Shown: piece by piece, positions 14,736 to 52,630 of the stretch
Layout of the letters: every line of letters starts with the position of its first letter
Numbering within the stretch: the stretch's first letter is position 1
Source: a virus
Lineage: Duplodnaviria; Heunggongvirae; Uroviricota; Caudoviricetes
Virus record (IMG/VR): IMGVR_UViG_3300029305_011445
DNA: 64,000 nucleotides
Strand: one strand, 5' to 3'
Made by a program: the position numbers and the translations under genes
Notes under the pieces: model-generated
What the model saw: only the letters and a program-made list of their open reading frames with translations
What the model was told of the DNA's origin: nothing
Database searches by the model: none

Positions 14736-16937
14736 TTAATTTTCTCTACTTGCGTAAAATGCTCGACGCAATGTGCAAATGTCATCAAGTTCAAGCTGAC
14801 CACTTGTTTCGTTACGATCTTTCATCCATGCGTAAAATTCCTGTGCAAGCGGAATGTCTAATGACACAGATTTCCCGATACAACCATTTTTGAATACCTG
14901 CTCTGATACTTTTCGCATCTGTTTCCAGAAGTTATAGTAATGAAGCTTTACTTTCACCATAAACCCTGTCGCATCTTCTAATACAAATCCTTCAATCTTT
15001 CGACCGTTAAGTTCATAATCCGGATGCATTACTTCTTTGTACCATTTACGGAACTCTGTCCAACTATTGATTTCAATGGCTTTTTCTTTTGGTGTTAACC
15101 CGAAACGATGTGCTACTGCCACCATATCGTTGTATTCATATTTCTTGAATTCCATCTCATTTGATACGATATCAAGTAAGATAAGCTTGCTTTCTGGATA
15201 TTCAATGATATGCGGATCATGTTCCATATCAACGCATTCAAAAACAAATGTTACATCATTTTCTTTGATGAATGATTTCATTGCTTCAAGTGTATCTGCA
15301 GCAACAGTTTTATGTAACATCTCTCTTACCCATCCGGCATAATCGCCTTCAACTGTTGATTTACTTGCAATAAGTAAGTTGTCACCATATTCATCGTAAC
15401 TAACCATGCCTAAGAATCCATTTTCTTTTACGTAACCAATTAATGGATACTGTAAATTCTTTTCTAACGAACTGAATAATGTTTCAGGACGTTCGTTAAC
15501 ATTAAAGAATTTTTCAAACGAGCGCATGCATACCTTGTTTCTAAAAGTGTCAATGAACAAACCTCTTGCTTTACAAGTCTGTTCGTTCCAAACTTTACCG
15601 TAAAATGCTTTTGATGTAAAATTGAATGATGAAATATTGCCAAACTGTTTCTCCTGTACATATGGATTATTACGTAACATAGTGACAAGTTCTTCAATTG
15701 TTTCAGGAACTTTATCTGTCACAATCTTTTCCTGTTTTGGTTCCACTTTTTTGAATACAGTATTTTTTGTTTCAAATGTATGAATACCATCAGAATCAAC
15801 CTGTACACATCTTAAATTGCCACCAAATTCAACTTCATTTTCCAGGTTGTACATACGTTCATTTGCCTGTACTGGAACACCAGTGATATTTCTATGTCCA
15901 TGAATCTGAGTGACAATACATGGGGCTGTTTCTAAGAATGTTTTCGCCACCTTGTCATAATCACTGTAGCGGCCAACACCATGGATCATCTGATCTGTTG
16001 AAATAAGTGTTAAGTTATCCGGTAATGTGCCCAAACCAGCATGTGTTACAAGGAAATATTTGTTTCCATAATGGTAATATGCACACTGTGCAAGTTTGCG
16101 ATAAAACTGTCTCAAGGTCTTTTTGCTAACACCTGCTTCAAGAAGCTGTGGTTTTGTGTTATTTTCAAACTCTTTTGATTTTGCTTCTTTATCATGTGCA
16201 AACAAATTGAGCCATCTTTCATGATTGCCTTCCAACAATAACACATTTTTACGATCCATGATTGTAAACAAGAATTCTAACACTGCTGCATTTTCAATGC
16301 CGCGATCAATGTAATCGCCAGTAAAAATGTAATATTCATCATCCTTGATGCCACCATTTGCGGCTAAATATTCCTGCAGCACAGAATGACATCCATGTAC
16401 ATCTCCAATATGATGAATCTTTTTGTAATGAGACAAATCAATTGGTTTCATCCAAATCGTATCAAGTTCATCCGGTGCAATGACTTTGATACCGGATGGT
16501 ACCTTTTCCGTTTTGAATCGTTCATACATTCTGTCGATTGCATAGTCTGGTACACGTTTTAACTCTTCTCTGAATACATTTCTACGTTTCACTTCTTCAA
16601 TTGGAAGCGTAGTAAAGTCGACAAGATAAATTCTGTAACGATAATCCTGACACAACTGTTTATATCGTGTTAATTCGGATGTTTTAGAATTTGTTGCATC
16701 AATTACTGTAAATGCACCTTTTTTCATACGGAATTCCAGCATTGAAAAAAGTGTTTCCCATGCAATATCAGAAACTCCCTGATCAATACCCATTGTGCCA
16801 TCGAGTTGCATCATTGGACTATTATACATAAGTCTCAATGTATCAGCACATAATGTATATGGTTCTAATCCATGTTCTTTGATCCAAGTGCTCTTGCCAC
16901 ATCCAGGTGCGCCTCGTAAAATTAATAATGTTCTCAT
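14736..16937 (-). CDS. Pnkp-like polynucleotide kinase-phosphatase-ligase (RNA/DNA end-healing and sealing)
   Basis: N-terminal P-loop GAPGCGKST kinase; central calcineurin-like phosphoesterase motifs GDVHG, GDYIDRG, GNHE; C-terminal adenylyltransferase-like domain with KENG (KxDG-like) motif, as in Clostridium thermocellum Pnkp. Confidence 0.8.
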   Translation of the reverse strand: MRTLLILRGAPGCGKSTWIKEHGLEPYTLCADTLRLMYNSPMMQLDGTMGIDQGVSDIAWETLFSMLEFRMKKGAFTVIDATNSKTSELTRYKQLCQDYRYRIYLVDFTTLPIEEVKRRNVFREELKRVPDYAIDRMYERFKTEKVPSGIKVIAPDELDTIWMKPIDLSHYKKIHHIGDVHGCHSVLQEYLAANGGIKDDEYYIFTGDYIDRGIENAAVLEFLFTIMDRKNVLLLEGNHERWLNLFAHDKEAKSKEFENNTKPQLLEAGVSKKTLRQFYRKLAQCAYYHYGNKYFLVTHAGLGTLPDNLTLISTDQMIHGVGRYSDYDKVAKTFLETAPCIVTQIHGHRNITGVPVQANERMYNLENEVEFGGNLRCVQVDSDGIHTFETKNTVFKKVEPKQEKIVTDKVPETIEELVTMLRNNPYVQEKQFGNISSFNFTSKAFYGKVWNEQTCKARGLFIDTFRNKVCMRSFEKFFNVNERPETLFSSLEKNLQYPLIGYVKENGFLGMVSYDEYGDNLLIASKSTVEGDYAGWVREMLHKTVAADTLEAMKSFIKENDVTFVFECVDMEHDPHIIEYPESKLILLDIVSNEMEFKKYEYNDMVAVAHRFGLTPKEKAIEINSWTEFRKWYKEVMHPDYELNGRKIEGFVLEDATGFMVKVKLHYYNFWKQMRKVSEQVFKNGCIGKSVSLDIPLAQEFYAWMKDRNETSGQLELDDICTLRRAFYASREN

Positions 16938-19803: not shown

Positions 19804-21162
19804 TTACAATGTCATTCGTTTTGCGGCTTCCACACATAAAGCACTTCTCTGCGCCTCTTCTTCTTCGAACGTAATCTGTGCACAAAGTTTTGAGCCCTTC
19901 ATCTTTTCTGCAGCAAATACTAATCCATTGTTTCGTTTGTCTAAGTATCTGGCATCAATCTGATTCGGATCACCCAGTAACACCACTTTTGTTCCTTCTC
20001 CCGCTCTTGTTACAATTTCAAGTGCCTGATGTACTGTCATATTCTGTGCTTCGTCGACAATCAAATATGTGTTTGGCAATGAACGTCCGCGAAGATATCC
20101 TACTGCCGCAATATTTACAATGCCCTTACCCATAACGTATTCAATCTGTTCTGCGGCAAGATCTAAGTCGCGTTCTTTGCCTGCAAAAATAGTTTTCATA
20201 TTATCCATAAATGGAGCAATGAGTGGATCCATTTTTTCTTCTAATGTTCCAGGTAAGAAACCTAAATCATTGTCAGAAATTGTATTGGTACGAGTAATCA
20301 TGACACTTTCGTATTTCTGATCTTTGTTTCGTTTCTTATTATCCATTGATGCATAAGTCTGTTCTAAGGCGCATGCAATTGCAAGTAAAGTTTTACCGGT
20401 ACCAGCCGGACCTTTACAAATAACAAGTGGAATTTCATCAGCCGGAGCTAAAAGTGCATGCATCAGCATTTTCTGTGGTGCATTTCTGCCTTCGATTCCA
20501 TATGCTGTTAACTCTTTATCATTAAGACGATATAACATTCCACTCTTGTGAACACATAATGCAGAAACATTACCATTCTTTAAAATTACATATTCATTTT
20601 CTTCTAATTCAATATCTTCTGGAACCGGATATTCTGTTGCTCCATAAATATCAAACATTGGGTCTGGCCACTCAATGAAGCATCTTCCTGTATATGCTTC
20701 ATCATCTTCGATCATTTCATTTTTGTAACTCTGTACTGTTACACCACATGCTGATGCATTGATTCTCATCGAAATGTCATTTGTAACAAGAATTACCGGC
20801 ATTGGGTACTTGTCACTCTTTTCCATACCAAGGACTGCAGCGATGATTCGATTATCTGCCACAGATAATGAATATCCATAAGGCAAGCAGTCTTCAATAC
20901 AATTTGTTTCAAGAAAAAGTGTTCCACCATTATGAAGATCAACGCCATCGATAAGGTTACCTTCCTGTCGCAAGGCATCTAAGATTCGAATACTCTCTCT
21001 GGCATTGAATCCAGCTTCACCTTTGTCGTTTTTGTGAGTATCTAGTTCCTGCAATGTTGTACCTGTGATAACTACATAGTTATCCGCAAATCCATAGATT
21101 GCATTTGGACTTGTCATTAAAATGTTTGTGTCGAGAACGTAAGTTTTCTTTGAGTTTTCCAA
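19804..21162 (-). CDS. PhoH2-type protein (N-terminal PIN nuclease domain + PhoH-like P-loop ATPase)
   Basis: YVLDTNILM PIN start; GPAGTGKT Walker A; DEAQN Walker B-like. Confidence 0.85.
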   Translation of the reverse strand: MENSKKTYVLDTNILMTSPNAIYGFADNYVVITGTTLQELDTHKNDKGEAGFNARESIRILDALRQEGNLIDGVDLHNGGTLFLETNCIEDCLPYGYSLSVADNRIIAAVLGMEKSDKYPMPVILVTNDISMRINASACGVTVQSYKNEMIEDDEAYTGRCFIEWPDPMFDIYGATEYPVPEDIELEENEYVILKNGNVSALCVHKSGMLYRLNDKELTAYGIEGRNAPQKMLMHALLAPADEIPLVICKGPAGTGKTLLAIACALEQTYASMDNKKRNKDQKYESVMITRTNTISDNDLGFLPGTLEEKMDPLIAPFMDNMKTIFAGKERDLDLAAEQIEYVMGKGIVNIAAVGYLRGRSLPNTYLIVDEAQNMTVHQALEIVTRAGEGTKVVLLGDPNQIDARYLDKRNNGLVFAAEKMKGSKLCAQITFEEEEAQRSALCVEAAKRMTL

Positions 21163-24278: not shown

Positions 24279-26033
24279 CTAAATCTTAAATTTGTTTACT
24301 TCTGTGCTTAATTTTGCAGCAATATTACTACAATTATCAGCTTCTATATTAATATCTGAAACAGAAGTTGTTAAATCAACGGTATGCGAAGCAACATTAC
24401 TGATACCGTTTGCAGTTTCTTCGATAGCAACACTGATTGCTTCGCTATTCTCTTTTAAGCCCTGCATATGAACATTGAGATTTTTGCATTCTTCTGCAAA
24501 AGTATTCATAATACTACTTAAGTGTTTAGCATCACGTTGATAATTTTCACTGGTTGTTAATAACTTATCATATCCAATCATAGCAACAGATTCCATAAAT
24601 GTTAACATTTCCTCTGCCTTTTGAGCCAATTCTGTAACTGTTTGAATAACATCTTCGCTTACGGTTTGGATTTCGGTCGCAGTTTCTGCTGAATGAGTTG
24701 CTAATTTTCCGATTTCACTTGCTACAACTGCAAATCCGCGACCAGCTTCTCCGGCTCTTGCTGCTTCTATTGATGCGTTTAATGATAACAAATTTGTCTG
24801 AGTGGTAATCTCTAAAATATTTTCAGTCATTGTCTTGATATCTTCAACTCGTTTGGACCGTTCAATCATTTCACTTACAGCAACACGCATTGCTTCAGCT
24901 TGTGTTTTCGCATCAATCTGCTCTTTTGTCGCCGTTTCATTAATAGTGTTTGCATTATTAGCGATTTTCAAGGTATTACTTTCTTCAATGCCTGCAGCTT
25001 CCGCAACCTGTTCTACTGATGTAACCACATCTTTAATAGCAGTATCCATCTGCGTCAAGGAAGCACTGATTTCTTCAATTGCAGCACCCATTTGTTCCAT
25101 TGTTGCAGAGACATCTGTGACTCTTGTTTCTGCATCTTTTAATTGTCCCGAAACCGTGTTTGACGATGTATGAAGCTCTGTTGAATTGTCATTAATATTT
25201 ATCATAATTCCGCGAATATAGACTAAAAATTTATTTACGTTATCAGCAATTAATTCTAATTCATCTCCGGTAGCTACATTAATTGTTTGAGTTAAGTCGC
25301 CTTCGTTACTTGCTAATTCGTGTAACTTTTCATTTACTCTCTTCATATTTTTAATGATTCTGTTTACAATTAAATAAACAATGATTGTGGCAACAATAAC
25401 ACCGAGTCCGGATACAGTAATTAATTCGATTACAACAGATTGTATATTATCCTTAATATATGTAGCGTCATAATCACATCCTAAGATGCCAAGTTGATTA
25501 CCTTCGCTATCATAAACTGGAACATAAGATGTGATATAAGCTTTATCACCATCCAATGTAAATTCTGATTCAGATAAGGCTGTTCCATTAAATACAGATA
25601 CCAAATATTCGTAATCTACTTCAAATAATTCTCCGATTTGTGCACGTTCTTCTGAATCTTCATCACTATCGACTCCATAGAATACATCTGTACCATTGGT
25701 ATAAAGAGTATATAAATAAGCGACGTTATATGTATTTTTAATTCTAGTAAGATCTTCCAATACGTCTTTATATTCTTTCGTTTCTTCAGCACCTTTATTT
25801 AATTTACTAAGAGAATCAGTATTAATTGATTTAGAAGCAAATTCAGCAACAATCATAGCTTCTTCACCACCAAGTGTTAAAAAGCCTTCGCTGATTTTAT
25901 AAAATGACTGTAATGTTAACATGGAACATAAAATAATAATGATAATGTTGATTGGTATAAGAATCTGCCATCTGATACTTAATTTTCTGCTCCCGTTATT
26001 CATTCGATGAAAAATACTTTTCTTTTTATTCAT
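24279..26033 (-). CDS. methyl-accepting chemotaxis protein with periplasmic sensor
   Basis: two TM helices around a sensor domain, then HAMP and signalling domain with [31 protein letters not shown]. Confidence 0.85.
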
Positions 26034-26086
26034 ATGATCCTCCTATACAAATTGTTAGACCTGATAGATATCAGGTCATAACAATA

Positions 26087-27865
26087 TCAATCCAATTTAA
26101 ATTTACGAACTTCATTTGTAAGTTCATCTGCAATCGCCTTATTATCCAATGCTGTTTTTTGAATTTCTGATACATCTGCATTTATCGCAGTTGTTGTATT
26201 TGCGATGCTGTTAACACCAGTTGTACTTTCTTCAATTGCAATATTGATCGCATTCATGTTTTCTAAGATCTTATGAATTGCCTGCTCAATATAATCCGTA
26301 GAATTGCAAAAAGCTTCCATCTGACGTCCCATTGTTTCAACATCTGTTTTATATGCAATACCTGTGTCTTTTAATTCATCGTATCCTTTCATTGCAACTT
26401 CATCTAAAAATGTAAGCATTCTTTCAGTTTGTTCGGCTAAAAGTTCTACAGCTGCAATTACTTCGTCGCTAACTTTTTTAATTTCATTCGCTGCATCCGC
26501 AGAAGTGTTTGCGAGTTTTCCAATTTCTGTTGCAACAACAGCAAATCCGCGACCGGATTGTCCGGCACGCGCGGCTTCGATACTTGCATTTAATGCTAAA
26601 AGATTTGTTTGGCTTGCAATTTCCAAAATATTCTCTGTTAATTTTGAAATTTGTGTTACAGCGTTGGAGCGTTCAAGACTTTCCTTGACATCAATTGTTA
26701 ATTGATCTGAAAGTTCTTTTGCTTTCGTAATATTTTCATCAACCTGTGACTCAATATTTGAAGCCTTTTTAACCGTTGCACGTGCGTCCATTTCACTCTG
26801 TTTTGCATATTTGGCAACATCGCCGGTTGTATCTGATACCTGTTTAATTAACGAACTAATTTCCACAATTGATGCACTCGTTTCTTCCATTGCAGCACTC
26901 ATCTGTTCCATTGTAGAAGAAACATCTGCGATTTCACTTTCTGAATCTGTAACCTTTTCTGTGATTGCAACTACAGAATCAGATAATTTAAGAGAATCAT
27001 CGCGAATACTAACCATAATAGCTCTAATATATGACAACAATGTGTTTACGTTTCCTGCAATTAATTCTAATTCATCGCCCGAATGAATATCTAAAGATTG
27101 TGTTAAGTCTCCGTTGTTGTTAGCAAGTTCACATATTTTTTCATTTACTTGGCGAATATTTTTAATGATGCCTTTTACGATTAAGCAAATAATTAATGAA
27201 TCAAATAGCAATGTTACAACTAGCACAAGAACCAATCTCGAAATCATTTGATATCTTATAGTCAAAATATTAGATGCGTCATAATCAATACATAATACTG
27301 CAGTTACATTTTCATCTGCATCAATAATTGGCTGATATACGGATAACAAATGTACATCATCTCCAAGATTTTTAATTACGGGGCTATTTGCTACAGTTCC
27401 GGAAAACGCTTTATTGATTAAATCAGAATCAACTAAATTCGTAGCAGCAGTTCCTACTTGTTTCGATGAATCAATATCGCTATTTAATCCATAAACAATT
27501 GAACCATTATTCGTTTTGTGTAAAGTATAAAACTGTTTCAAGTGTCCCTGTTCTAATAACATTTGTAGCGTTGTATTTATTGAAATAGCGTTTTCTTCAC
27601 TTAACAAGTTTTCATAATTAAGAGCTTCTGCGTCAATCAAATCTGACGCAATGGCCGCTATAGATTTTGCATTTTCAATTGCTAGATCACGATATTTATC
27701 GTTATAACCTTTTACGCTACTGTAACCAACTACAAAACAACCTGATATTACAACTAAAATAACAGGAACGAGTATTTTAAGTTGCAACGAAAATCGTCTT
27801 ACCTTTTGTTTTTCTTTTTTATCCCTCATTTTCTTTCTCTCCACTAAAAATTTTACTAAATTCAC
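26087..27865 (-). CDS. methyl-accepting chemotaxis protein (paralog)
   Basis: same architecture; [32 protein letters not shown]; start overlaps stop of upstream small ORF (ATGA). Confidence 0.85.
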
Positions 27866-29462: not shown

Positions 29463-30332
29463 ATGATTATTACAACAAATACATCAAAGGGTGGCGAAAC
29501 AAAAACAAGCAGTACTGTCACGTTCGGTTCAATATTAGCTGTTGCCGGATATAAAGTGTTACTTGTTGATTCTGATCCGCAGCAAAATTTAACATATTTA
29601 TGTGCGACAGAAGATACAAATGTGAACCCTCCAATTGTTATTTATGATTTACTATTGCGAAGTTCAGTTGATGATAGTGAGCTAAAAGATGCAATTGTGA
29701 CAACAAAAATAAAAAACATGGATATGATTCCAGCAAATGATAGTTTGTATTTAGCACCATATCATTTATACGACAAAGTAGTTCACGAAGGCGAGACACA
29801 AAGTATATTAAATTTACGAAACAACTTAATGCGCATTCAAGAAATATTCGAATATGATTACATACTTATTGACACTCCACCTACGAAATCATATGCAGTT
29901 AATGCAACACTTGCTGCAGCAGATTATGTTGTTACCGGTATTTCACCGGATAATTTATCGTGGCAGGGTTTATCTGCGATGATACAAGCAGTTGATGACA
30001 ATAATGTTACTTATGCAAGAGATACGCAAGTTGCAGGTGTATTTTTAACAAGAGTCAACCCTCGTACAAATCGATACCGAGAAATGAGTGCTGGTTACAA
30101 ACAACTCTTAGGAGATATTTTCTTAAATAGTTTTGTTCGTACAAATGAAGAAATGGGTAAAGCGAACTCTTATATGGTTCCTATTGTATTGTTTAATAAA
30201 CGATGCGAAGTGATCGAGGACTATATTAATGTAATGATTGAATTAGGATTGCTTGACACAAATGATTGGCATTATCTCGAATTGCGGAAGTATTTAAGAA
30301 GCAACAATAGGCAGAAAGAAAGCGAGGATTAA
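29463..30332 (+). CDS. parA: ParA/MinD-family partition ATPase
   Basis: deviant Walker A-like SKGGETKTSS near N-terminus, LLVDSDPQ, ParA-like size (289 aa), immediately followed by parB. Confidence 0.75.
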   Translation: MIITTNTSKGGETKTSSTVTFGSILAVAGYKVLLVDSDPQQNLTYLCATEDTNVNPPIVIYDLLLRSSVDDSELKDAIVTTKIKNMDMIPANDSLYLAPYHLYDKVVHEGETQSILNLRNNLMRIQEIFEYDYILIDTPPTKSYAVNATLAAADYVVTGISPDNLSWQGLSAMIQAVDDNNVTYARDTQVAGVFLTRVNPRTNRYREMSAGYKQLLGDIFLNSFVRTNEEMGKANSYMVPIVLFNKRCEVIEDYINVMIELGLLDTNDWHYLELRKYLRSNNRQKESED

Positions 30333-30335
30333 TAT

Positions 30336-31433
30336 ATGGCAGCAAACAGACAACCTATGATGCCGGGAATGACAAGTATCGGACAAATTGGAACAAGAGG
30401 TACCGGGTTAGGACAAATTCAGGCACAGAAAGCATCTGGTATCAATTATATTCCATACGATAATATTATCCCAAATAAGAAAAATAAACGATATGACCAA
30501 ATTGACATTGAATCGTTAAGTTATTCTATTGAAGATAGAGATTTGCTTCATAATTTAGTTGTTACGCCTTCCGAAACAAGTGGTATGTATGATTTAATAA
30601 GTGGTGAGCGAAGATGGCGCGCAATTGGACTGCTTAGAGATAGAAATCCAAAACGTTTTGAAGAATTATTTCCAGGTGGACTCATCCCATGTAAAGTTCA
30701 AGTACTCGATAATGTGGATGATGAAATTTCTTTGATAGTTGCAAACACTGAAGTTCGAAATATTAGTGTTAAAGATAAATTAAATGATGTAAGGCGGTTG
30801 GCAGAATTATACGCAATCAAATATGAAAATGAACCAAAGACAAATGTTTCTGAAATGATTGCAAAGCAATTAGCAATGTCAGAACGTCAGATTCGTAAAT
30901 ATATGAGTCTTGACAAACTAGTTCCAGAATTAATGCAAGCATTTGATGATGATATTTTAAATATCGAAGCAGCAAGTAAAATTGCTCTTCTAGGAGAGAC
31001 AGAACAATTGTATCTTGTTGATATATTAAACGAAACAGAAAAAATTACTGAAGATGATATTGTTGCTGCAAAGGCGTTACAGGTTCAAAAAGAGACTGCG
31101 TTAAAAGAAATCGATACAAAGCAGGAAGAAATTGCAGCATTAGAAGAAATGAAATCCATCGCAAAAACTACAGATGAAACTGAGTTCATTAATACTAGAA
31201 TTGAAGAACGTTTAAAAGCAATTGATGATACGAAGCAAAAATTATCTGATAGACAAATGCGAAAGCTTCGAAAAGTTGCGAAGGCTGGTAAAATTGTAGA
31301 TCAAACAACAGAAGCGATTGATAAACTCCAAAATATGATTGAACCAATCAAATCTGATACGACAATTATTCTTCGTCTTGAGATGCTACAAATGAAATTG
31401 AACCGATTGATTGAACAAGTAAAAAAAGAATAA
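30336..31433 (+). CDS. parB: ParB-family partition protein
   Basis: ParB/Srx N-domain GERRWRAIGLL; coiled-coil C-terminus; 3 nt after parA. Confidence 0.8.
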   Translation: MAANRQPMMPGMTSIGQIGTRGTGLGQIQAQKASGINYIPYDNIIPNKKNKRYDQIDIESLSYSIEDRDLLHNLVVTPSETSGMYDLISGERRWRAIGLLRDRNPKRFEELFPGGLIPCKVQVLDNVDDEISLIVANTEVRNISVKDKLNDVRRLAELYAIKYENEPKTNVSEMIAKQLAMSERQIRKYMSLDKLVPELMQAFDDDILNIEAASKIALLGETEQLYLVDILNETEKITEDDIVAAKALQVQKETALKEIDTKQEEIAALEEMKSIAKTTDETEFINTRIEERLKAIDDTKQKLSDRQMRKLRKVAKAGKIVDQTTEAIDKLQNMIEPIKSDTTIILRLEMLQMKLNRLIEQVKKE

Positions 31434-40319: not shown

Positions 40320-40371
40320 AATTTCACTCTCCCTTCTTTGTTCTCGTTTGTGATAGGATCACTGTTACGAA

Positions 40372-40383
40372 AATAAATATGGT
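40372..40383 (-). promoter_or_regulatory. consensus promoter motif
   Basis: exact copy upstream of DHH gene. Confidence 0.6.
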
Positions 40384-40384
40384 A

Positions 40385-40960
40385 TGTGGCACATTATCAC
40401 AATATAACATGTCATTTGTATGGTTTAAACATAACAATGAATTAAACATACATCATATGTACGGCCTTATCTGTAACAATAATATATTTATATAAAAATA
40501 TATTTATATAAATAATATATTGTATCAGAATTAATACTGTAATCAAAATAATATTGTAACAAATAATAATTGTAACAATAATAATACTGAATCAATAATA
40601 TTGTTTAACTATAGTTACAATGTATCTAGTATTACATAGTAAACAGGATTTATTATAATCTCGTAACAGTAATAATACCGAACCAATAATATTGTTTAAC
40701 TATAGTTACAATGTATCTAGTGTTACATAGTAAACAGGATTCATTATAATCTCGTAACATTAGTAATACTGAATCAATACAACACTGTAACAATAATAAT
40801 ACTGAACCAATAATACTGTTACGTAACTATAGTTACAATGTATCTAGTGTTACATAGTAAACAGGATTCATTATAATCTCGTAACAACAATAATACTGTT
40901 ACAGAATAATACTGAATCAGATATTATTTGTTACAAGATAAGGTCCATTTTTGGGTGCGG
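40385..40960. repeat. complex tandem-repeat region: three ~115-125-bp direct repeats plus >=10 TGTAACA/TTGTTACA heptads
   Basis: units starting ~40587, ~40676, ~40800 share ...aatattgtttaactatagttacaatgtatctagtgttacatagtaaacaggattcattataatctcgtaaca; each contains 12-bp palindrome TAACTATAGTTA. Confidence 0.8.
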
Positions 40961-44008: not shown

Positions 44009-44028
44009 TTAAAAAGGTGGGTTTAAAA

Positions 44029-45639
44029 ATGAGGGAAAAGAAAAGCAGAAAATCGTTATTGTCTTCGTTTAAGACACAATTACTGGCAATGAGTATTTTA
44101 CCAATGTTATTTTCGTTATTGGTTGTTCTTATTGTAGCAATTACTGGGATGAGAAATCTTGCACAAACTATGATGTATGACAAATTTGAATGTACATCAA
44201 TTTTAGTGCAAAACTCCTCTCAGGATACAATTGATGCGGAAATGAAGGCGATTGCAGAAGAACAGGATATGATACTTTCATTCTTGAAGCAGGGAAAGAT
44301 TGTTTATTCAACCAATCTGGAATTAATTGGATCTGCTTCCGATATTACCGAAACAGAACATTCATTAGTAAGACATACAGTTAATAACATTGAATATTTA
44401 TCAGCAACTTTTGAAATGCGGGATGGATCGACATTACTTGTTAGTGAAGAACGTAATACTTATTTAAATTTATTATCTCCGTATCAAGTGAAAATGTTTT
44501 GGACCGGCGTTGCGATGTTAATCAGTGCGATCATAATTATCTTCGTATTAAGCACTCGTATTGCAAAAATACTTGGGGCTGTAAGAGATATCGTTCATGA
44601 GGTTGGTAGGGGTAATCTTAATAATGATTATGATGAGAAATTATTATCTCGAAAAGATGAAATTGGTTCTATTTATCGAAATACAAAAAGCATGGATGAA
44701 ATGTTTATGGACGTTGTGTCAAAAATGCGATCAACGATTAATGGATTAAATGATTCTGCAGAAACTATTAAAGTATCTGTAGATACTTGTCTTGAAAATA
44801 CGAACGGAATAGAATCAGCTGTTGAAGAAGTTGCGCAAGGTGCCTCACAACAAGCAAATGAGTGTACAACCGGAACAGGTGCTACTGCAGAAATTAATCA
44901 GTTTATAGATGGTGTTGTTATCGAATCAAATGGGCTTAAAGCGGTTTCTGATAACATGTTCAGATTGAAAGATGTATCTCTTGAATCATTAAATCAACTG
45001 GTTGAGCATAATGAGGACAACACAATTGCAATAAAAGATATTGCGAAACAGATTGCAGAAACGAATGAATCGATCACAAATGTAATTGAAATCATTCAAA
45101 AGATTGAACAAATTAGTAGCCAAACAAATTTACTTTCGTTAAACGCGTCTATTGAAGCAGCAAGAGCTGGAGAAGCAGGACGTGGTTTTGCGGTTGTAGC
45201 GAGTGAAATTGGGAAACTTGCGGAACAAACATCAGCGTTGACAAAAGAAATTACAGATCATGTTGCAATTCTTAATTTAAATTCGGAAAATTCATTGCAG
45301 ATGATGTCCGGAGTTAGTGAGAGCGCTATCGCACAGTCGAAATTAATTACGTTGACCAAAGATGGTTTCTCTGAATTAGATCAAAATATCAATCAATCTG
45401 TTTCTAGCATTAATGCCATCGCTAAAGCAATGGATGAGTTATCTACTCAGTCTGCAAATTTAGTTGATACATTATCAAGTTTATCTGCAATCTCTGAGGA
45501 AAATGCAGCATCCGCAGAAGAGTGCTCTGCATCTGTTGTATCTCTTAATGGCACCATGGAAGATTTGAAGCAAAAGGTTAATGTGCTCGAAGGGAATAAA
45601 AATGCATTAATTAAACTTGTGGAATTTTTCCATGTTTAA
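44029..45639 (+). CDS. methyl-accepting chemotaxis protein
   Basis: start moved to ATG 44029 (AAAGGTGG RBS); TM helix, [35 protein letters not shown]. Confidence 0.85.
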
Positions 45640-48309: not shown

Positions 48310-48897
48310 GTGAAAATTATGAAACAAATAACAGATCATTTGGGAAATAAATACAAAACACAAACAGAAATGTGTAAAAAATACGGCATTAGTTCTGCGA
48401 CATATACGAGTCGAATTAAGAAGGGTTGGAGTAAAAAGAAAGCATTAACGACACCTACTGGCAAAAAGAGTAATAAATCGAATATTACGAAAGGGAAATC
48501 AGGGAGCGCACAGGCTAAAGTAAAGGATATCCAGACTTCGTTTAAACCGTTAACTAATCGTCCGGCACAAGAATATATGCGATACTTGGATTTTATGAAT
48601 CAGCGATTACTTGTATTAAAATCTATGACTTTAAAACAATGTACAAATAAAGTTGATAAAGAGATTGCGGATGAAGCGTATAATGCGGTAATTTTACGAA
48701 ACAAACAAATTATGAAACAACTGAATACGTTATGGTTTGTTGCGAGTGATGATTATTTTTCCGGAAATACAGGAACGATGGCAACAACAACCTTTAATTC
48801 AATAGAATCTCAGTTCAAAAATATAGAGAACCAGAAGGGGCTATTTTACACAGTATATGTTTGGTTTGTTGGTAAATTTAACATAAAGAGAAAATAG
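48310..48897 (+). CDS. hypothetical protein, possible HTH
   Basis: 195 aa; KYGISSATYTSRIKKGWS resembles a small HTH; no consensus motif upstream. Confidence 0.5.
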   Translation: MKIMKQITDHLGNKYKTQTEMCKKYGISSATYTSRIKKGWSKKKALTTPTGKKSNKSNITKGKSGSAQAKVKDIQTSFKPLTNRPAQEYMRYLDFMNQRLLVLKSMTLKQCTNKVDKEIADEAYNAVILRNKQIMKQLNTLWFVASDDYFSGNTGTMATTTFNSIESQFKNIENQKGLFYTVYVWFVGKFNIKRK

Positions 48898-48948: not shown

Positions 48949-49137
48949 ATGTTTGGATCAAATAGTAAACAGCAGTGTGGATTTTCCACATGCTTAAATC
49001 AAAATTGTGGTATTTTGTTTTGTAGCAAAAATATAAAACGTAATAAGAATCGAGATAAGCGATTTGGGTTTTATGAAAATACAAAACACTGTTTAAAGTC
49101 AAAATTGAAAGGTGTGTTGACCGGTCATGGAAAATAA
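48949..49137 (+). CDS. small Cys-containing protein
   Basis: start ATG 48949 (AGGAGG +8); variant motif TCATATTTATA at 48917-48931. Confidence 0.35.
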   Translation: MFGSNSKQQCGFSTCLNQNCGILFCSKNIKRNKNRDKRFGFYENTKHCLKSKLKGVLTGHGK

Positions 49138-49816
49138 TGTAATAGTGCAAAATATTGAAACAGAGTTACCTTTGGTTACAGGCCGAACAATGTTAGGCCT
49201 TCTTATGGTTCAGGGCGAATTACAAGCTGGATATGATCGGTACAAAGATGAAGAAGTAGAAGAAGTGTTGATGCGCGTAAAAGAATATTCGCAATGGGCA
49301 TATGATCAAGGTCTTATTTCTGAACAAAATAAGATGTTATCTGTGCATCAAGCAGAATGTATCAAACAGATCAATGCATTGCAATCCACGCATTCATTCG
49401 GAGATATTTTAGGTCCGTTACAAAGTTTTATGTATGAAGATGGAGCAAATGTAAATAGGGTCCTTTCGCGTCAAGAGTGGTCGGCATTTCATTCTTGTGT
49501 ATGTGACATTTTAATTAACATGACAAGCCCGAACCGAAAAGAGCGTTTTAACGAACTAATTTGTGACGTAAGAAGTAGTATCGTATTATATTGTTTCAAT
49601 ATATGGCTGGAACAAAATATTGATGAATGTAAAGATCTTCGATACGGTGAGCAATTACGAAAATGGGTAAGTAGTAAAATGGGGATTAAAGTTCGAGATA
49701 TTATGGATGAGGCGGTGGCGAAAGCGATAGCTCATAAAGATATAAAATATATTTTGTTTGCAGGAGATGTTTTGCCAGATATTGTTCGAAATAAGAATAA
49801 TGATTACGTAGAATAA
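49127..49816 (+). CDS. hypothetical protein
   Basis: 229 aa, overlaps previous ORF by 11 nt. Confidence 0.5.
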   Translation: MENNVIVQNIETELPLVTGRTMLGLLMVQGELQAGYDRYKDEEVEEVLMRVKEYSQWAYDQGLISEQNKMLSVHQAECIKQINALQSTHSFGDILGPLQSFMYEDGANVNRVLSRQEWSAFHSCVCDILINMTSPNRKERFNELICDVRSSIVLYCFNIWLEQNIDECKDLRYGEQLRKWVSSKMGIKVRDIMDEAVAKAIAHKDIKYILFAGDVLPDIVRNKNNDYVE

Positions 49817-49825
49817 TATTTGATT

Positions 49826-49874
49826 AAGGTATATACTTTATAAGGTATATACCTTTTATAAAGTATATATAGTG
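49826..49874. repeat. left inverted-repeat arm bounding the ori-like module
   Basis: AAGGTATATACCTTttatAAAGTATATATAGTG (49842-49874) is the reverse complement of 51211-51244 (CACTATATATACTTcgtgcgAGGTATATACCTT) apart from the 4-6 nt spacer; AAGGTATATACCTT is itself palindromic. Confidence 0.75.
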
Positions 49875-50002
49875 AAACTGTACTCTTTCGGGTCGGATGG
49901 TTTTTCTGCCTTTTATTCCGACACGTAAGATTGTCTTTTAATAATTTTGGTTTCGAAGTTTTAAGTGTCAGTACTAACTGGCACTTTTTCTTTACCCGTT
50001 AT

Positions 50003-50071
50003 CTCTGGTTTCGGAACATCTCTGGTTTCGGAGTACTTCTGGTTTCGGGGTATCTCTGGTTTCGGGGTATA
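50003..50071. repeat. 4x tandem 17-18-nt repeat (a)TCTCTGGTTTCGGrgTA
   Basis: tctggtttcgg at ~50003, 50020, 50038, 50055. Confidence 0.8.
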
Positions 50072-50242
50072 TCTTATCTCAACATTCCTTATCCCTAATA
50101 TACCTTTCTTCAAATGTATCACTATGCCATATCTTTGTTTCAAACAATTTTGGGACAGTAAATTCTCGCATCAAGAAATGTTCGAAGCAGTAGTATTGCA
50201 GCGCACTTGTTTCGAGACTTTTTCGGTTTCATATATCATTTC

Positions 50243-50890
50243 TACATCACTTAACTGAGGCAGTTATGTTGATATCAGTACTACTTTATTCTTTAATACA
50301 CCATGTAGCTGATGTAATTTGAAACCAGAATTGTTATAGATGCATCATCTAGTTGGGGTGGTTATTTTTGTTTCGCGGATGTTTACGAAGCCAAATACCT
50401 CATGTTAGTGATGTAGTTCTGAAACTAAGGTTATATTAGATACATCATCTAGCTGGGGTAGTTATAATTATTGATACAGAATATTTCGGATCAAATATAT
50501 CATCTAAGTGGGGTAGTTTTGGAGCCGGAACATCCATAGATACATCATCTAACTGGGGTAGTGGAGTATTGATTCTATAATTTTTCTGATATAAATACAT
50601 CATGTAGCTGAGGCATTTCTGGTTTCGTATTATCTTCTCTACCTCGTCTTATTGGTGTGATTGGCTATTAAATACATCATCTAGCTGATGTAGTTGTCAT
50701 GAGATAATGATAAATTTAGCACCATGATATATCACGTAGCTGAGGTAGTTTGAAACCAGAATTATTATAGATACCTCATCTAACTGGGGTAGTTATATTT
50801 CGGTACAGAGGAAATTTTTAATAAATACATCACGTAGATGAAGTAGTACGTACCAAAATAATAGGTACCTCATTTTGCCGGGTTAATTAT
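50243..50890. repeat. iteron-like array: ~13 degenerate copies of a ~24-bp element (consensus aTACATCAtcTAgCTGgGGTAGTt) at 43-77-bp spacing
   Basis: copies at ~50243, 50296, 50339, 50395, 50440, 50494, 50539, 50593, 50670, 50727, 50772, 50823, 50866; two subtypes (..TAGCTGATGTAGTT with CATCA/TGATG inverted arms, and ..TAaCTGGGGTAGTT); longer unit TGAAACCAGAATTrTTATAGATrC repeated at ~50320 and ~50750. Confidence 0.8.
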
Positions 50891-51210
50891 CACTCGAAAC
50901 CAGCATTCCCAGTTTCAGATATATTTGCTAGAAGAATTGATTGTATAGTGCATGTGGTGTTGTTCGCTAGAAGAGTTATATCGAAACAAGAGGTGTTGCA
51001 AAAAAAAAAAAAGAATTATGTGTGCAGGTAAGATTTTGAGAAAAGGAAAAGTGAGAAAGGGATGTTATTTTAAAACCAGATAGATTAGTTTGAAAGATGG
51101 CGGTGCAAAATACGGTGCACCTAAAAAAAACAAAAAAAAAGACGAATCCGCTTCGGAAATCGGTGCAGGAAAAGCGCACCGAAAAGAACCCGAAACGAAA
51201 GGTACATGTT

Positions 51211-51263
51211 TCACTATATATACTTCGTGCGAGGTATATACCTTGTAAAGTATATACCTTATT
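51211..51263. repeat. right inverted-repeat arm bounding the ori-like module, immediately upstream of the relaxase promoter
   Basis: see left arm; followed by a second AAAGTATATACCTT copy and then promoter motif 51280-51291. Confidence 0.75.
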
Positions 51264-51279
51264 TTTCGATAAATCACAT

Positions 51280-51291
51280 ACCATATTTATT
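51280..51291 (+). promoter_or_regulatory. consensus promoter motif
   Basis: exact copy upstream of relaxase gene. Confidence 0.6.
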
Positions 51292-51328
51292 CCCGGAACA
51301 AAAATTAATAGAAAGGTTGGTGCAGAAA

Positions 51329-52630
51329 ATGAGAGCACATGAACATACTGGAACAAGAAATAATACAACAAACTTTACTGCAAAACCTGTAAAACTTGCG
51401 CATCGAAATCAAATAAAGGGTATGACAATCCATAATGGTCGACTTGAAGCTGAAACAGGGAAGGATCTTCGTGAAAATGTAGATGAAAAAAGAACTCATT
51501 TAAACGACGTTTTGATTGGTGACAAAACAATGGATCTGTATTACGAAACTATTAAACGAATTTCCGGGAAAGATATATCAAAAGAAGATGTTGAAGATTT
51601 AGAATTTGAAAATATCAAATTTGCAAATGGAAGAAAAGTTCGAAAAGATGCAAATGTGCTGGAATGCCAATCCCAGTATCCAGGAAAAATGGTACACGCA
51701 AAACTTGATGAATACGGAAAGGTTCAGATTTTACCAGAAGGAACTGAATTTTCAGATGCTGATATCGATAAAGGCGGAGACGATGTTTTTTCGTATCCAG
51801 CAGATATGGAAGAATTTAATCGTTGGAAAGAGTTAACAATGAATTATATGGCGGAACGATTTGGTGGCAGAGAAAATATCATTCAAGCGGTATGTCATAT
51901 GGATGAAAGTATTCCCCACATCCATGCATATATCGTTCCGATGTATCACGACGTCAAGAGTAATACAGATAAACTTTCTTTGAAACATTATCTATCCGGG
52001 CCAAGATGCTTTGATGAATTACAAACCGAGTATGCAGCGTATATGAGTGAATTAGGTTATCGCCGCGGAACAAAAAGTTCTCCGGTTAAAGTAACCCCTC
52101 AGACAGCCACTCAGTTTCGAAACAGTGCTGCACGCGTACTATCTACAGTTCCAGACTCCCCTACTGCGGCAAGACAATTTGTAAACGAATTAAGTGACCA
52201 AGAATTATACGAAGAACTAAGAGGAGCTGGCGTGCAATTATATATTGCAAAAGATAAAGTCAAGAAAACAGAAACAGCATTGGCAAGCAGCAATCGTATT
52301 ATTACAAAACAATCTGATACAATCAAGAAAAAAGATGAAGAAATTAAACATCTCAAAGAACAGATTGAAGAACAAAAAAGAGAACTTGCAAAAGCACAAC
52401 TTCAAGCTCAACGTAGATTATGCGAAAAACAAGGGCTTCAAAAATGTGATGACAAAGAAGCTGTTGATGTGTATTTGCAATTTCAGGAACAATTAGTTGA
52501 AGATGGATTAGAGGTATTAAAGCTCGCCGGTCTCGACATCAATTTAAACGGTATTGATGATCGTGTCGAAAATTACATTGATAAAGACAATAATGGTATC
52601 GATGATAGACTAGAAGATAATAATAATTAA
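51329..52630 (+). CDS. MobV/Pre-family relaxase (plasmid recombination/mobilization enzyme)
   Basis: start moved to MRAHEH (ATG 51329, AAAGGTTGG RBS); motif III HMDESIPHIHAYIVP (HxDExxPHxH); N-terminal LAHRNQ (HxxR-like); C-terminal coiled coil. Confidence 0.8.
   Translation: MRAHEHTGTRNNTTNFTAKPVKLAHRNQIKGMTIHNGRLEAETGKDLRENVDEKRTHLNDVLIGDKTMDLYYETIKRISGKDISKEDVEDLEFENIKFANGRKVRKDANVLECQSQYPGKMVHAKLDEYGKVQILPEGTEFSDADIDKGGDDVFSYPADMEEFNRWKELTMNYMAERFGGRENIIQAVCHMDESIPHIHAYIVPMYHDVKSNTDKLSLKHYLSGPRCFDELQTEYAAYMSELGYRRGTKSSPVKVTPQTATQFRNSAARVLSTVPDSPTAARQFVNELSDQELYEELRGAGVQLYIAKDKVKKTETALASSNRIITKQSDTIKKKDEEIKHLKEQIEEQKRELAKAQLQAQRRLCEKQGLQKCDDKEAVDVYLQFQEQLVEDGLEVLKLAGLDINLNGIDDRVENYIDKDNNGIDDRLEDNNN

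What the first reader, a model, noticed from the sequence alone, without database searches (positions are those of the whole stretch)
50003..50890. Iteron array (~13 x 24 bp) plus 4 x 17-nt tandem repeat: candidate replication origin
About 13 degenerate copies of aTACATCAtcTAgCTGgGGTAGTt are spaced 43-77 bp apart in two sequence subtypes, one of which forms CATCA...TGATG inverted arms. A 4x tandem of TCTCTGGTTTCGGrgTA lies immediately upstream at 50003-50071, and A12 and A8CA9 homopolymer tracts follow at ~51000 and ~51123. A ~25-nt unit TGAAACCAGAATTrTTATAGATrC occurs twice. Iterons with AT tracts and no ORF are typical of a theta or rolling-circle origin with Rep-binding sites. No rep gene is obvious adjacent, but 49127..49816 and 48310..48897 just upstream are unassigned.
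Basis: seen in the sequence. Interest (0 to 1): 0.7.

Follow-up and report, generated by a model that had tools for sequence, protein, structure and literature searches.

The report
Repeat array beside a plasmid transfer gene
The repeats are real, but they are best read as protein-binding sites belonging to a DNA-transfer (relaxase/oriT) module on a large uncultivated plasmid-like element, and a more convincing replication origin lies about 10 kb away.

Summary
Twelve clear copies and one degenerate copy of a 23-26-nt imperfect palindrome (TACATCA-N6-TGrkGTA) lie at 50242-50890. They all point the same way and occur nowhere else in the 64 kb. A 4.4 x 17-nt tandem lies at 50000-50074.

The next gene (51329-52630) is a MOBV/Mob_Pre relaxase. 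The 1.5-kb gap is bracketed by 80-nt inverted arms, and the left arm resembles the pMV158 oriT (ACTTTAT...ATAAAGTATA[TA]TAGTG). Comparable palindrome arrays of 8-32 sites precede this relaxase subfamily in 24 further fetched loci from four Mob clades, although the other neighbouring genes differ. Generic MOBV loci lack such arrays.

The array has no AT-rich unwinding segment, no DnaA boxes, no adjacent rep gene and no GC-skew inflection. All but the rep gene are better matched at 40360-40950, next to recJ.

Best reading, at moderate confidence: a multi-site platform for a dimeric protein, probably the relaxase itself, within an extended oriT/relaxosome region. An iteron origin or copy-control locus and a sopC-like centromere remain live rivals. 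This is a new variant of a known kind.

The parts
49825..49904 (+). Left arm of the 80-nt inverted repeat; candidate MOBV-type oriT on the mob-coding strand. It has a 14-bp perfect stem (49830-49843 / 49856-49869) around GGTATATACC, followed by ATAAAGTATATATAGTG (49858-49874) and GAAACTGTACTCTTTCG.
   Evidence: pairs I1 and I9; folds as single-stranded DNA at -11 kcal/mol, z = -3.85, 0 of 200 shuffles as stable; pMV158 oriT is GCACACACTTTATGAATATAAAGTATAGTGTG/TTATACTTTAC, coding strand; exact match unique in the window; aligns with the left arm of L008.
49963..49995 (+). Terminator-like hairpin plus T run. It probably ends transcription of the upstream operon before the repeats begin.
   Evidence: 10-pair stem, then TTTCTTT.
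50000..50074 (+). Motif 2: a 4.4 x 17-nt tandem, TATCTCTGGTTTCGGrG.
   Evidence: (families D5, D6).
50236..50893 (+). Motif 1 array: 12 clear copies plus 1 degenerate copy of aATACATCAtcTAgcTGrgGTAGT. Starts at 50242, 50296, 50340, 50395, 50440, 50495, 50540, 50595, 50672, 50727, 50771, 50825 and (degenerate) 50865. All copies are in one orientation, alternately 44-45 and 54-55 nt apart.
50320..50329 (-). Inverse copy of the motif 2 core (TCTGGTTTCA), lying between an A-type and a B-type motif 1 site. Further inverse copies are at 50751-50760, 50895-50904 and 50982-50991. Direct copies are at 49946-49955 and 50618-50627.
50894..51181 (+). Purine- and A-rich unique spacer holding A13 (51000-51012), A8CA9 (51123-51140) and several CGGTGCA words. 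No ORF here looks credible.
   Evidence: Purine-rich spacers of about 300-650 nt also sit between array and mob in L008 and L013.
51182..51261 (-). Right arm: a degenerate inverted copy of the left arm. The oriT-like motif is on the minus strand and the stem is reduced.
   Evidence: pair I1; ACGAAGTATATATAGTG, 2 mismatches, minus strand.
51329..52630 (+). mob: a 433-aa MOBV (Mob_Pre) relaxase with the HNGR and HMDESIPHIH motifs. The model shows a relaxase domain, an 83-residue helix and a C-terminal DxNxNGIDDR twin motif.
   Evidence: (gene callers report 433 aa).

Best explanation
The 1.5-kb gap is the cis-acting half of a relaxase (mobilisation) module on a large plasmid-like element of at least 136 kb. 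It contains a pMV158-type oriT hairpin and nick region on the mob-coding strand (left arm). Next comes an ordered array of about 13 imperfectly palindromic 20-24-bp sites interleaved with a second short motif. Then follow a purine-rich spacer, a degenerate inverted copy of the oriT arm, and the MOBV relaxase gene.

The array works as double-stranded DNA, as a row of binding sites for a dimeric protein. The most economical candidate is the Mob relaxase itself. Its model shows a long coiled-coil stalk, and its homologue MobM is a dimer that footprints a palindrome of the same build (AGTATA-N6-TATACT, IR2) on linear duplex DNA.

Many bound dimers next to nic would hold the relaxase in cis at oriT as an extended relaxosome or 'landing pad', and would probably also damp mob expression.

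Shown: the repeats; the relaxase identity; the oriT-like sequence; and the family-wide linkage of array and mob.

Inferred: which protein binds, and what the binding achieves.
For: 1. The relaxase identity is solid: Pfam Mob_Pre, the HxxR and HxDExxPHxH motifs, a profile hit to MobM (PDB 4LVI, E = 1.9e-11) and a fold match with TM 0.71.

2. The left arm matches the pMV158 oriT. The IR1 arms ACTTTAT/ATAAAGT are identical, and ATA[TA]TAGTG follows, on the coding strand as in pMV158.

3. Linkage holds in four divergent Mob clades, each with its own variant of the same palindrome family:
- Window: TACATCA-N6-TGrkGTA, 13 sites.
- L008 (Mob 30% identical): AGTATCA-N6-TGATAyT, at least 10 sites.
- L013, L095, L014 and 17 human-gut contigs: GGTATyA-N8/9-TrATACy, 14-32 sites.
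- L098: ATACCA-N6-TGGTAT, 8 sites.
- L009 has a single perfect GTATCACCTAGGTGATAC.

4. Only Mob is shared by all four loci that were compared with the window by BLASTP. RecJ is shared by two of them. Gene tables for L095 and L098 also show different neighbours. L013 and L014 have Mobs 78% identical and the same motif, but unrelated flanks.

5. The arrays are specific to this subfamily. The commonest 8-mer in the 2.5 kb upstream occurs 6-16 times in 23 of 24 subfamily loci, against 2-5 times in 43 generic MOBV loci.

6. The arms show no consistent covariation or G.T strand bias (L013: 30 G.T, 6 A.C; L014: 6 G.T, 12 A.C). At position 6 in L014 the four pair combinations (C.A 6, C.G 4, T.A 2, T.G 2) show no sign of co-variation. 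This fits protein recognition better than a hairpin.

7. The Mob model has an 83-residue helix after the relaxase domain. MobM footprints IR2 on duplex DNA and is proposed to self-regulate there (PMC5863519), and full-length MobM is a dimer (abstract of PMC3105389).

8. The array sits on the leading side of the nick region in the window and L008, but on the trailing side in clade B. That is compatible with a duplex binding platform beside nic.
Against: - No binding data exist. The binder could be encoded elsewhere on the element; only 64 of at least 136 kb were seen.
- The window's commonest site, the B type, is markedly asymmetric (TACATCA versus TACCCCA), which is odd for a symmetric dimer.
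- Characterised MOBV oriTs are about 40 bp and need no such array.
- L009, whose Mob is closer to the window's (37%) than several array-bearing relatives, has only one site, so the array is not needed for relaxase function as such.
- A second motif (the 17-mer) implies a second factor that this explanation does not name.
- The functional nick site has not been mapped. Which arm is active is inferred from similarity to pMV158.
Confidence: 0.45

Rival explanations
1. Iteron-type vegetative origin or copy-control locus. The repeats would bind an initiator that melts nearby DNA or handcuffs plasmid copies. In the variant that fits best here, the HUH relaxase doubles as the replication initiator, as relaxases do for some integrative conjugative elements (from my own knowledge, not checked here).
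For: The array is a multi-copy, one-orientation set of sites in ORF-free DNA with A tracts nearby. HUH origins typically pair a nick hairpin with binding repeats (established knowledge of the pMV158 RepB nic and bind loci). Array copy number varies from 14 to 29 among near-identical clade-B relatives, as incompatibility or copy-control arrays often do. L009, which sits among defence-type genes on a contig of a binned genome assembly, has only a single site.
Against: No Rep-family gene was found next to the array in any locus whose gene table was read; the 17 human-gut loci were not annotated. There is no AT-rich unwinding element: minimum 80-nt GC is 23.8% and mean GC is 34.7%, the same as the window as a whole. 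DnaA boxes are not enriched and none lies in the gap. GC skew does not change sign here. The 40360-40950 region has the AT-rich core (GC 8.75%), symmetric repeats, the strand switch and the skew minimum, and a counterpart next to recJ in L008. Site spacings of 36-55 bp are wider than the roughly 22-bp spacing of classical iterons.
Confidence: 0.2
2. Centromere-like partition site. The array of dimer-binding palindromes would nucleate a segregation complex, like sopC of F (12 x 43 bp, each unit with a short inverted repeat) or the EBNA1 family of repeats. The binder would be the element's ParB (30336-31433) or another adaptor protein.
For: The build closely parallels sopC: 8-32 palindromes, one per 32-55-bp unit, expanded as tandem super-units (the sopC description is established knowledge). 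The element encodes ParA and ParB, and no obvious repeat array lies beside them. Large low-copy elements need a centromere. The integrated-looking relative L009 lacks the array.
Against: parAB lies 19 kb away in the window. No ParB_N gene lies within 4-10 kb of Mob in L008, L013, L014 or L095. In L098 the ParB gene is followed directly by its own, different 4 x 23-nt repeats. The array travels with mob across unrelated backbones, which is not expected of a par site.
Confidence: 0.17
3. Single-strand function. After nicking, the array enters the recipient early as single-stranded DNA and folds into a row of hairpins. These would act as priming sites or single-strand promoters (sso-, ssi- or Frpo-like), or as relaxase-recognition hairpins for termination.
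For: In the window and in L008 both inverted oriT-like arms point into the array, so whichever strand is nicked the array would lead. Each site can form a 6-7-bp stem with a 6-nt loop. The loops share a TAG or TAAG core across clades.
Against: The stems are poorly maintained in the window: A.G at position 5 in 7 of the 13 array copies tabulated. There is no consistent covariation, and the G.T bias runs in opposite directions in L013 and L014. In clade B the array lies 5' of the oriT-like sequence and would be transferred last. No Rfam family matches.
Confidence: 0.08
4. Functionless tandem-repeat expansion, with slippage or unequal crossing-over acting on a short palindrome such as an operator.
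For: Perfect 102-nt repeats in L008, and variable copy number among close relatives, show recent expansion and contraction.
Against: An array is retained in 25 of the 26 loci that have enough upstream sequence. This spans Mob proteins as little as 30% identical. The motif is conserved while the spacers diverge, and in clade B the array always ends about 650 nt from mob.
Confidence: 0.05

Closest known systems
pMV158 oriT / MobM (MOBV1 relaxase module)
   Same: The relaxase fold and catalytic motifs match. An oriT-like hairpin with ACTTTAT/ATAAAGT arms is followed by ATA..TAGTG on the coding strand upstream of mob. MobM is a dimer and footprints a 7-N6-7-type palindrome (IR2) on duplex DNA.
   Different: The pMV158 oriT is about 43 bp with three overlapping inverted repeats and no array. 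Here a 650-bp array of 13 sites, a second motif and an inverted second arm separate the oriT-like hairpin from mob by 1.45 kb. The protein is at most about 29% identical to annotated MobV proteins and sits on an element of at least 136 kb rather than a small rolling-circle plasmid.
F plasmid sopC and other centromere arrays (also the EBNA1 family of repeats)
   Same: Tandem units of tens of bp, each carrying one short inverted repeat for a dimeric DNA-binding protein. Copy number is variable and higher than seems necessary.
   Different: There are no adjacent partition genes. The array is linked to a relaxase gene instead. Sites are degenerate and of two subtypes, with a second interleaved motif.
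Iteron origins and inc arrays (P1 oriR/incA, F oriS/incC, the bind locus of pMV158 RepB)
   Same: Directly oriented repeats in non-coding DNA, proposed to bind an initiator. Pairing of a nick hairpin with binding repeats is typical of HUH enzymes.
   Different: No Rep gene, no AT-rich unwinding element, no DnaA boxes, wider and alternating spacing, and palindromic sites.
CRISPR array
   Same: Interspaced repeats of about 24 nt.
   Different: The repeats are degenerate (62-86% identical), spacing is irregular (40-77 nt), spacers are partly repeated as super-units, and there are no cas genes. Not a CRISPR array.

Membership tests
Iteron-containing theta replication origin | Several directly oriented copies of an initiator-binding repeat | tested here: met
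   12-13 copies in one orientation; 12 matches against 0.03 expected.
Iteron-containing theta replication origin | Cognate rep gene adjacent to, or overlapping, the iterons | tested here: not met
   No Rep family among the flanking ORFs of the window. The upstream ORFs have no homologue in the stretches fetched around four related loci. The only conserved neighbour is a relaxase.
Iteron-containing theta replication origin | Adjacent AT-rich DNA-unwinding element | tested here: not met
   The lowest 80-nt GC in 49817-51328 is 23.8% and the mean is 34.7%. The window's extreme (8.75%) is at 40474-40553.
Iteron-containing theta replication origin | DnaA boxes or a GC-skew inflection at the site | tested here: not met
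   No TTATCCACA-like site lies in the gap and there is no enrichment in the window. Skew stays positive from 41 to 63 kb and its minimum is at 40-41 kb. Skew is confounded by gene orientation.
Iteron-containing theta replication origin | Supports autonomous replication | not testable with these tools
   Needs cloning, or read-coverage data.
MOBV (pMV158-type) oriT | MOBV relaxase gene next to the site | tested here: met
   Mob_Pre 1.1e-16; 4LVI profile hit 1.9e-11; fold TM 0.71.
MOBV (pMV158-type) oriT | Inverted repeat followed by the conserved nick-region sequence on the mob-coding strand | tested here: met
   49830-49874 reads ACTTTAT..ATAAAGTATA TA TAGTG, against ACTTTATGAATATAAAGTATAGTGTG in pMV158. 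The hairpin has z = -3.85. The loop is longer (12 nt against 4) and the site lies 1.45 kb from mob rather than about 100 nt.
MOBV (pMV158-type) oriT | Site-specific nicking by the cognate relaxase, and mobilisation | not testable with these tools
   Requires biochemistry and mating assays.
ParB/SopB-type centromere (sopC-like) | Array of short inverted repeats, one per tandem unit | tested here: met
ParB/SopB-type centromere (sopC-like) | Located beside the parAB operon and bound by its ParB | tested here: not met
   parAB is at 29463-31433, 19 kb away. No ParB lies near the arrays of L008, L013, L014 or L095. The ParB of L098 has its own adjacent repeats. Binding itself cannot be tested here.
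CRISPR array | Near-identical repeats, regular spacing, unique spacers, cas genes | tested here: not met
   Copies are 62-86% identical, spacing is 40-77 nt, spacers are partly repeated, and no cas domains were found in the ORFs scanned.
Known structured RNA (Rfam) | Match to a curated covariance model | tested here: not met
   No hit at gathering score in the window. In the region itself the only hits are weak (best 23.6 bits against a 100-bit cutoff).

The most novel reading that the evidence does not exclude
In this family of 136-181-kb gut elements, a MOBV HUH relaxase has been recruited as an iteron-binding maintenance protein. On this reading the palindrome array plus mob would be the element's replication-control or segregation device. 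The coiled-coil stalk and the Ca-binding-like C-terminal motif would serve as a tether, and the two inward-facing nick-like arms would allow initiation on either strand. That would make it a relaxase-based replicon or centromere of a kind not described before.
Probability: 0.15. Interest if true: 0.8.

Novelty: new variant of a known kind. Interest (0 to 1): 0.55.

Why it matters
Characterised MOBV oriTs are tiny (about 40 bp) and act without accessory arrays. Here a whole subfamily of relaxase genes carries 0.3-1.5 kb of ordered palindromic sites as a fixed companion. These genes sit on large elements from herbivore-associated and human-gut metagenomes, elements that are absent from the plasmid, phage and IMG/VR collections searched.

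If the relaxase binds these sites, that points to a way for large low-copy elements to keep a scarce, consumable relaxase at their own oriT. That would bear on cis-acting preference, autoregulation and perhaps tethering.

If another protein binds, the array marks where maintenance and transfer functions are coupled.

Either way it gives a concrete 24-bp probe and a short list of proteins with which to start biochemistry on an uncultivated element family. It also moves the likely vegetative origin of this element to about 40.5 kb.

Tried and rejected
1. DNA similarity searches of the region, of a 24-kb flank, and of a clade-B locus against PLSDB and INPHARED found nothing.
2. The motif and two proteins were searched against IMG/VR with no relatives found.
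3. The genome-contig scan used only the generic HMDExxPHxH pattern and returned distant MOBV loci. These were reused as a control set.
4. The first metagenome scan, with clade-A patterns, found nothing.
5. RNA reading: no Rfam family or tRNA, and the arm pairs do not covary. Rejected as the main explanation.
6. Invertible-segment reading of the 80-nt arms: all ten overlapping contigs show the same orientation. The array has the same orientation relative to mob in the window and L008, and there is no recombinase gene nearby. Not supported.
7. Upstream ORFs as binders: 48310-48897 has an N-terminal HTH-like region (PHROG hits) and 49127-49816 has no hits. Neither has a homologue in the four related loci compared.
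8. No credible small accessory (RHH-type) ORF lies in the gap. L009 has a 131-aa protein with what looks to me like an RHH C-terminus, but it has no homologue in the window.
9. Phage reading of the element: no structural PHROG hits in 20 ORFs.
10. One contig look-up failed because the gene start differed from the recorded call.
11. Literature searches found no description of this family or of relaxase-linked arrays.
Full report
**1. The observation**

The sequence between the stop of the 229-aa ORF (49816) and the start of the next gene (51329) has no credible ORF.

- The repeat finder reports a 12-member family at 50236-50893, and a second family adds the copy at 50393.
- A degenerate 23-nt pattern matches at 11 distinct sites, all inside 50242-50847. 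One site matches on both strands, giving 12 matches against 0.03 expected.
- A position-weight scan of both strands of the whole window finds no other copy. Array copies score 28-42 bits, the degenerate 13th copy scores 13.7, and the best hit elsewhere scores 5.1.
- All copies point the same way. The consensus is TAGATACATCATCTAGCTGGGGTAGT.
- There are two subtypes. One is a near-palindromic A type (TACATCA-N6-TGATGTA). The other is an asymmetric B type (TACATCA-N6-TGGGGTA).
- A and B sites lie 44-45 nt apart and pairs recur every ~100 nt, so spacing alternates 44-45 / 54-55.
- The 17-nt tandem (4.4 copies, 50000-50074) is confirmed. Its core TCTGGTTTCG recurs within the array in both orientations.
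- The A tracts are A13 at 51000-51012 and A8CA9 at 51123-51140.

**2.

*An adjacent relaxase gene.* The gene immediately downstream (51329-52630, 433 aa) is a MOBV relaxase.
- Pfam Mob_Pre scores 1.1e-16.
- It carries HNGR and HMDESIPHIH motifs.
- A family profile hits the MobM relaxase domain, PDB 4LVI, at 1.9e-11.
- An AlphaFold model (mean pLDDT 77) matches 4LVI with TM 0.71. After the relaxase domain the model continues into an 83-residue helix.

*Inverted arms that resemble an oriT.* The gap is bracketed by an 80-nt inverted repeat, 49825-49904 and 51182-51261, 79% complementary.
- The left arm on the plus strand (the mob-coding strand) reads TATATACTTTATAA-GGTATATACCTT-TTATAAAGTATATA-TAGTGAAACTGTACTCTTTCG.
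- The pMV158 origin of transfer is GCACACACTTTATGAATATAAAGTATAGTGTG/TTATACTTTAC. It is nicked on the coding strand after GTGTG (PMC5863519).
- The IR1 arms ACTTTAT/ATAAAGT are identical in the two sequences, and ATA(TA)TAGTG follows.
- The window hairpin is far more stable than shuffles (z = -3.85).
Its only other match, with 2 mismatches, is the right arm on the opposite strand.
- A terminator-like hairpin at 49963-49995 separates the left arm from the repeats.

**3. Source and nature of the element**

- The window matches a 135,915-bp JGI metagenome contig with one mismatch over the 20,690 bases compared. The same relaxase also occurs on a contig of 157,780 bp.
- The 64 kb carry ParA/ParB, two sigma-70 factors, three chemoreceptor (MCP) genes, RecJ, a UvrD-like helicase, RecU, PhoH-PIN, a Pnkp/RNA-ligase-like protein and a PARP-like protein.
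- There are no phage structural hits, tRNAs or housekeeping genes.
- Nothing similar is present in PLSDB, INPHARED or IMG/VR.
- I treat it as a large plasmid-like element of a low-GC Firmicute. That host assignment is an inference from gene content.

**4. Comparative evidence: the key result**

Homologues of the relaxase were traced to their contigs. A long non-coding stretch full of palindromes precedes the gene in every case that has enough upstream sequence, apart from L009.

| Locus or group | Mob relation | Site | Number of sites |
|---|---|---|---|
| L008 (148.7-kb contig) | 30% identical to window | AGTATCA-N6-TGATAyT | at least 10 |
| L013, L095, L014, and 17 human-gut contigs up to 181 kb | clade B | GGTATyA-N8/9-TrATACy | 14-32 |
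| L098 | more distant clade | ATACCA-N6-TGGTAT | 8 |
| L009 (contig of a binned genome assembly, among defence genes) | 37% identical to window | GTATCACCTAGGTGATAC | 1 |

Further details:
- L008 has a 17/18-nt unit laid out as in the window: a tandem run in one orientation on the left, then inverse copies interleaved with the palindromes.
- In clade B the array always ends ~650 nt before mob.
- L097 and L096 are cut too close to mob to judge. L097 begins inside GTATCA-rich sequence.
- Among the four loci compared with the window by BLASTP, only Mob is shared by all, and RecJ by two.
- L013 and L014 have Mobs 78% identical and the same site, but unrelated flanks.
- As a control I scored the 2.5 kb upstream of 43 generic MOBV genes fetched. 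Their commonest 8-mer occurs 2-5 times, against 6-16 times in 23 of 24 subfamily loci.

The array is therefore a specific, conserved companion of this relaxase subfamily. Array, oriT-like sequence and mob move together as a module.

**5. Duplex protein site or hairpin?**

Across 32 (L013), 14 (L014), 10 (L008) and 13 (window) sites, four or five of the seven arm positions are nearly invariant.
- The variable positions do not covary. In L014, position 6 shows C.A 6, C.G 4, T.A 2 and T.G 2.
- The excess of G.T over A.C in L013 (30:6) is reversed in L014 (6:12).
- In the window, position 5 is an A.G mismatch in 7 of the 13 array copies.

This pattern fits recognition of duplex half-sites by a dimeric protein. 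It does not fit a base-paired RNA or single-stranded DNA stem. No Rfam family matches.

**6. Which protein binds?**

No other copy of the motif marks any promoter in the window. The only gene that always accompanies the array is mob.
- Full-length MobM is a dimer (abstract of PMC3105389).
- On linear duplex DNA, MobM footprints IR2, AAGTATA-GTGTGT-TATACTT. That is a 7-N6-7 palindrome of the same build and similar outer bases (AGTAT...ATACT) as the L008 and L009 sites. The authors propose that it regulates itself there (PMC5863519).
- The model's long helix is consistent with a coiled-coil dimer.

On this basis I propose the relaxase as the binder. This step is inference, not demonstration.

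**7. Is the array the replication origin?**

The array region has average base composition: GC 34.7%, lowest 80-nt window 23.8%. It has no DnaA-box-like sites, no adjacent Rep gene, and GC skew stays positive across it.

A second repeat-rich non-coding region lies at 40360-40950, between recJ and the first plus-strand gene.
- It contains the most AT-rich 80 nt of the window (40474-40553, GC 8.75%), a long AT palindrome, three GTAACTATAGTTAC palindromes and 91/127-nt super-repeats.
- It coincides with the strand switch and the cumulative-skew minimum.
- L008 has a similar region beside its recJ.

That region is the better candidate for the vegetative origin, although skew is confounded with gene orientation. 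The array could still be a copy-control locus or a relaxase-driven origin, which is why I keep that rival at 0.2.

**8. Is the array a centromere?**

Its build closely resembles sopC. Three points count against that reading.
- parAB is 19 kb away.
- No ParB gene lies near the arrays of four other loci.
- In L098 the ParB gene is followed by its own, different repeats.

I keep this rival at 0.17.

**9. Geometry**

- In the window and in L008 the array is flanked by inverted arms whose oriT-like strands point inward.
- In clade B a single oriT-like sequence lies between the array and mob and points toward mob.
- The array is thus always beside the presumed nick, but on either side of it. That suits a duplex binding platform. 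It argues against a function tied to entering the recipient first.
- All ten overlapping contigs from other samples show the same orientation of the segment, so there is no sign of inversion.
- Several assemblies break inside the region (at 49888, 50766 twice, 51023 and 51222), as expected for repeats.
- L003 leaves the window sequence at 50833, inside a site. This may be an assembly chimera.

**10. Verdict**

It is best filed as an unusually elaborate oriT/relaxase control region: a new variant of a known kind. It recurs across a family of large, unclassified elements from herbivore-associated and human-gut samples. Its exact role, and the identity of the binding protein, remain inferences that simple biochemistry could settle.

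Noticed in passing
window 40360-40950: A second non-coding repeat region lies between recJ (minus strand) and the first plus-strand gene. It holds the most AT-rich 80 nt of the window (40474-40553, GC 8.75%), a long AT palindrome, GTAACTATAGTTAC three times and 91/127-nt super-repeats. It sits at the strand switch and the cumulative GC-skew minimum. A similar region lies beside recJ in L008 (4290-5450). It is a better candidate for the vegetative origin.
   Followed up: partly
L003 6672-6833 (junction at window 50833): A contig from another sample follows the window exactly up to 50833, inside a motif 1 copy (…AATACATCAC|), and then continues into unrelated sequence. This is either an assembly chimera or a real alternative junction at a site.
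   Followed up: partly
window 52480-52630 (Mob residues ~385-433): The relaxase ends with a twin DINLNGIDDR / DKDNNGIDDR motif after an 83-residue helix. The motif resembles Ca-binding DxDxDG loops and is conserved in much of the subfamily, which is unusual for a relaxase. The Ca-binding resemblance is from memory, not tested.
   Followed up: no
L008 7858-7898 and 9885-9925; L008 7720-7800: The related 148.7-kb element also has ~45-nt inverted arms flanking its array. Its left flank carries five CGTACACTTT-type repeats that resemble the oriT-like sequences of L009 and L013.
   Followed up: partly
L100-L116 (17 human-gut metagenome contigs, up to 181 kb): Clade-B relatives of the relaxase occur on large human-gut contigs. 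Their arrays hold 14-29 sites, a number that varies among near-identical relaxases. A 13-kb sample of one locus has no match in PLSDB or INPHARED.
   Followed up: partly
L098 1745-2156: Four copies of a 23-nt repeat (ATTTAATATGGTTTTAAAAAAAT) lie directly downstream of a ParB_N gene. This is a likely centromere, and it is distinct from the palindromes upstream of mob in the same contig.
   Followed up: no
L009 8813-8830 and 9038-9433: A single perfect palindrome, GTATCACCTAGGTGATAC, lies ~210 nt upstream of a 131-aa ORF that precedes mob. The C-terminus of that ORF looks to me like a ribbon-helix-helix domain. This may be an operator and accessory-protein version of the module.
   Followed up: no
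window 14736-16937, 10841-12070, 19804-21162, 24279-27865, 44017-45639: The cargo is unusual for a plasmid-like element: a Pnkp/T4-RNA-ligase-like fusion, a PARP-like protein, PhoH-PIN and three methyl-accepting chemotaxis proteins. No phage structural hits were found.
   Followed up: no
window 51097-51342 and 50445-50603; L008 7972-8358: Gene callers placed small ORFs (81, 52 and 128 aa) inside the repeat regions. The L008 ORF translates the 18-nt tandem as VTENTT repeats, so these calls are almost certainly spurious.
   Followed up: yes
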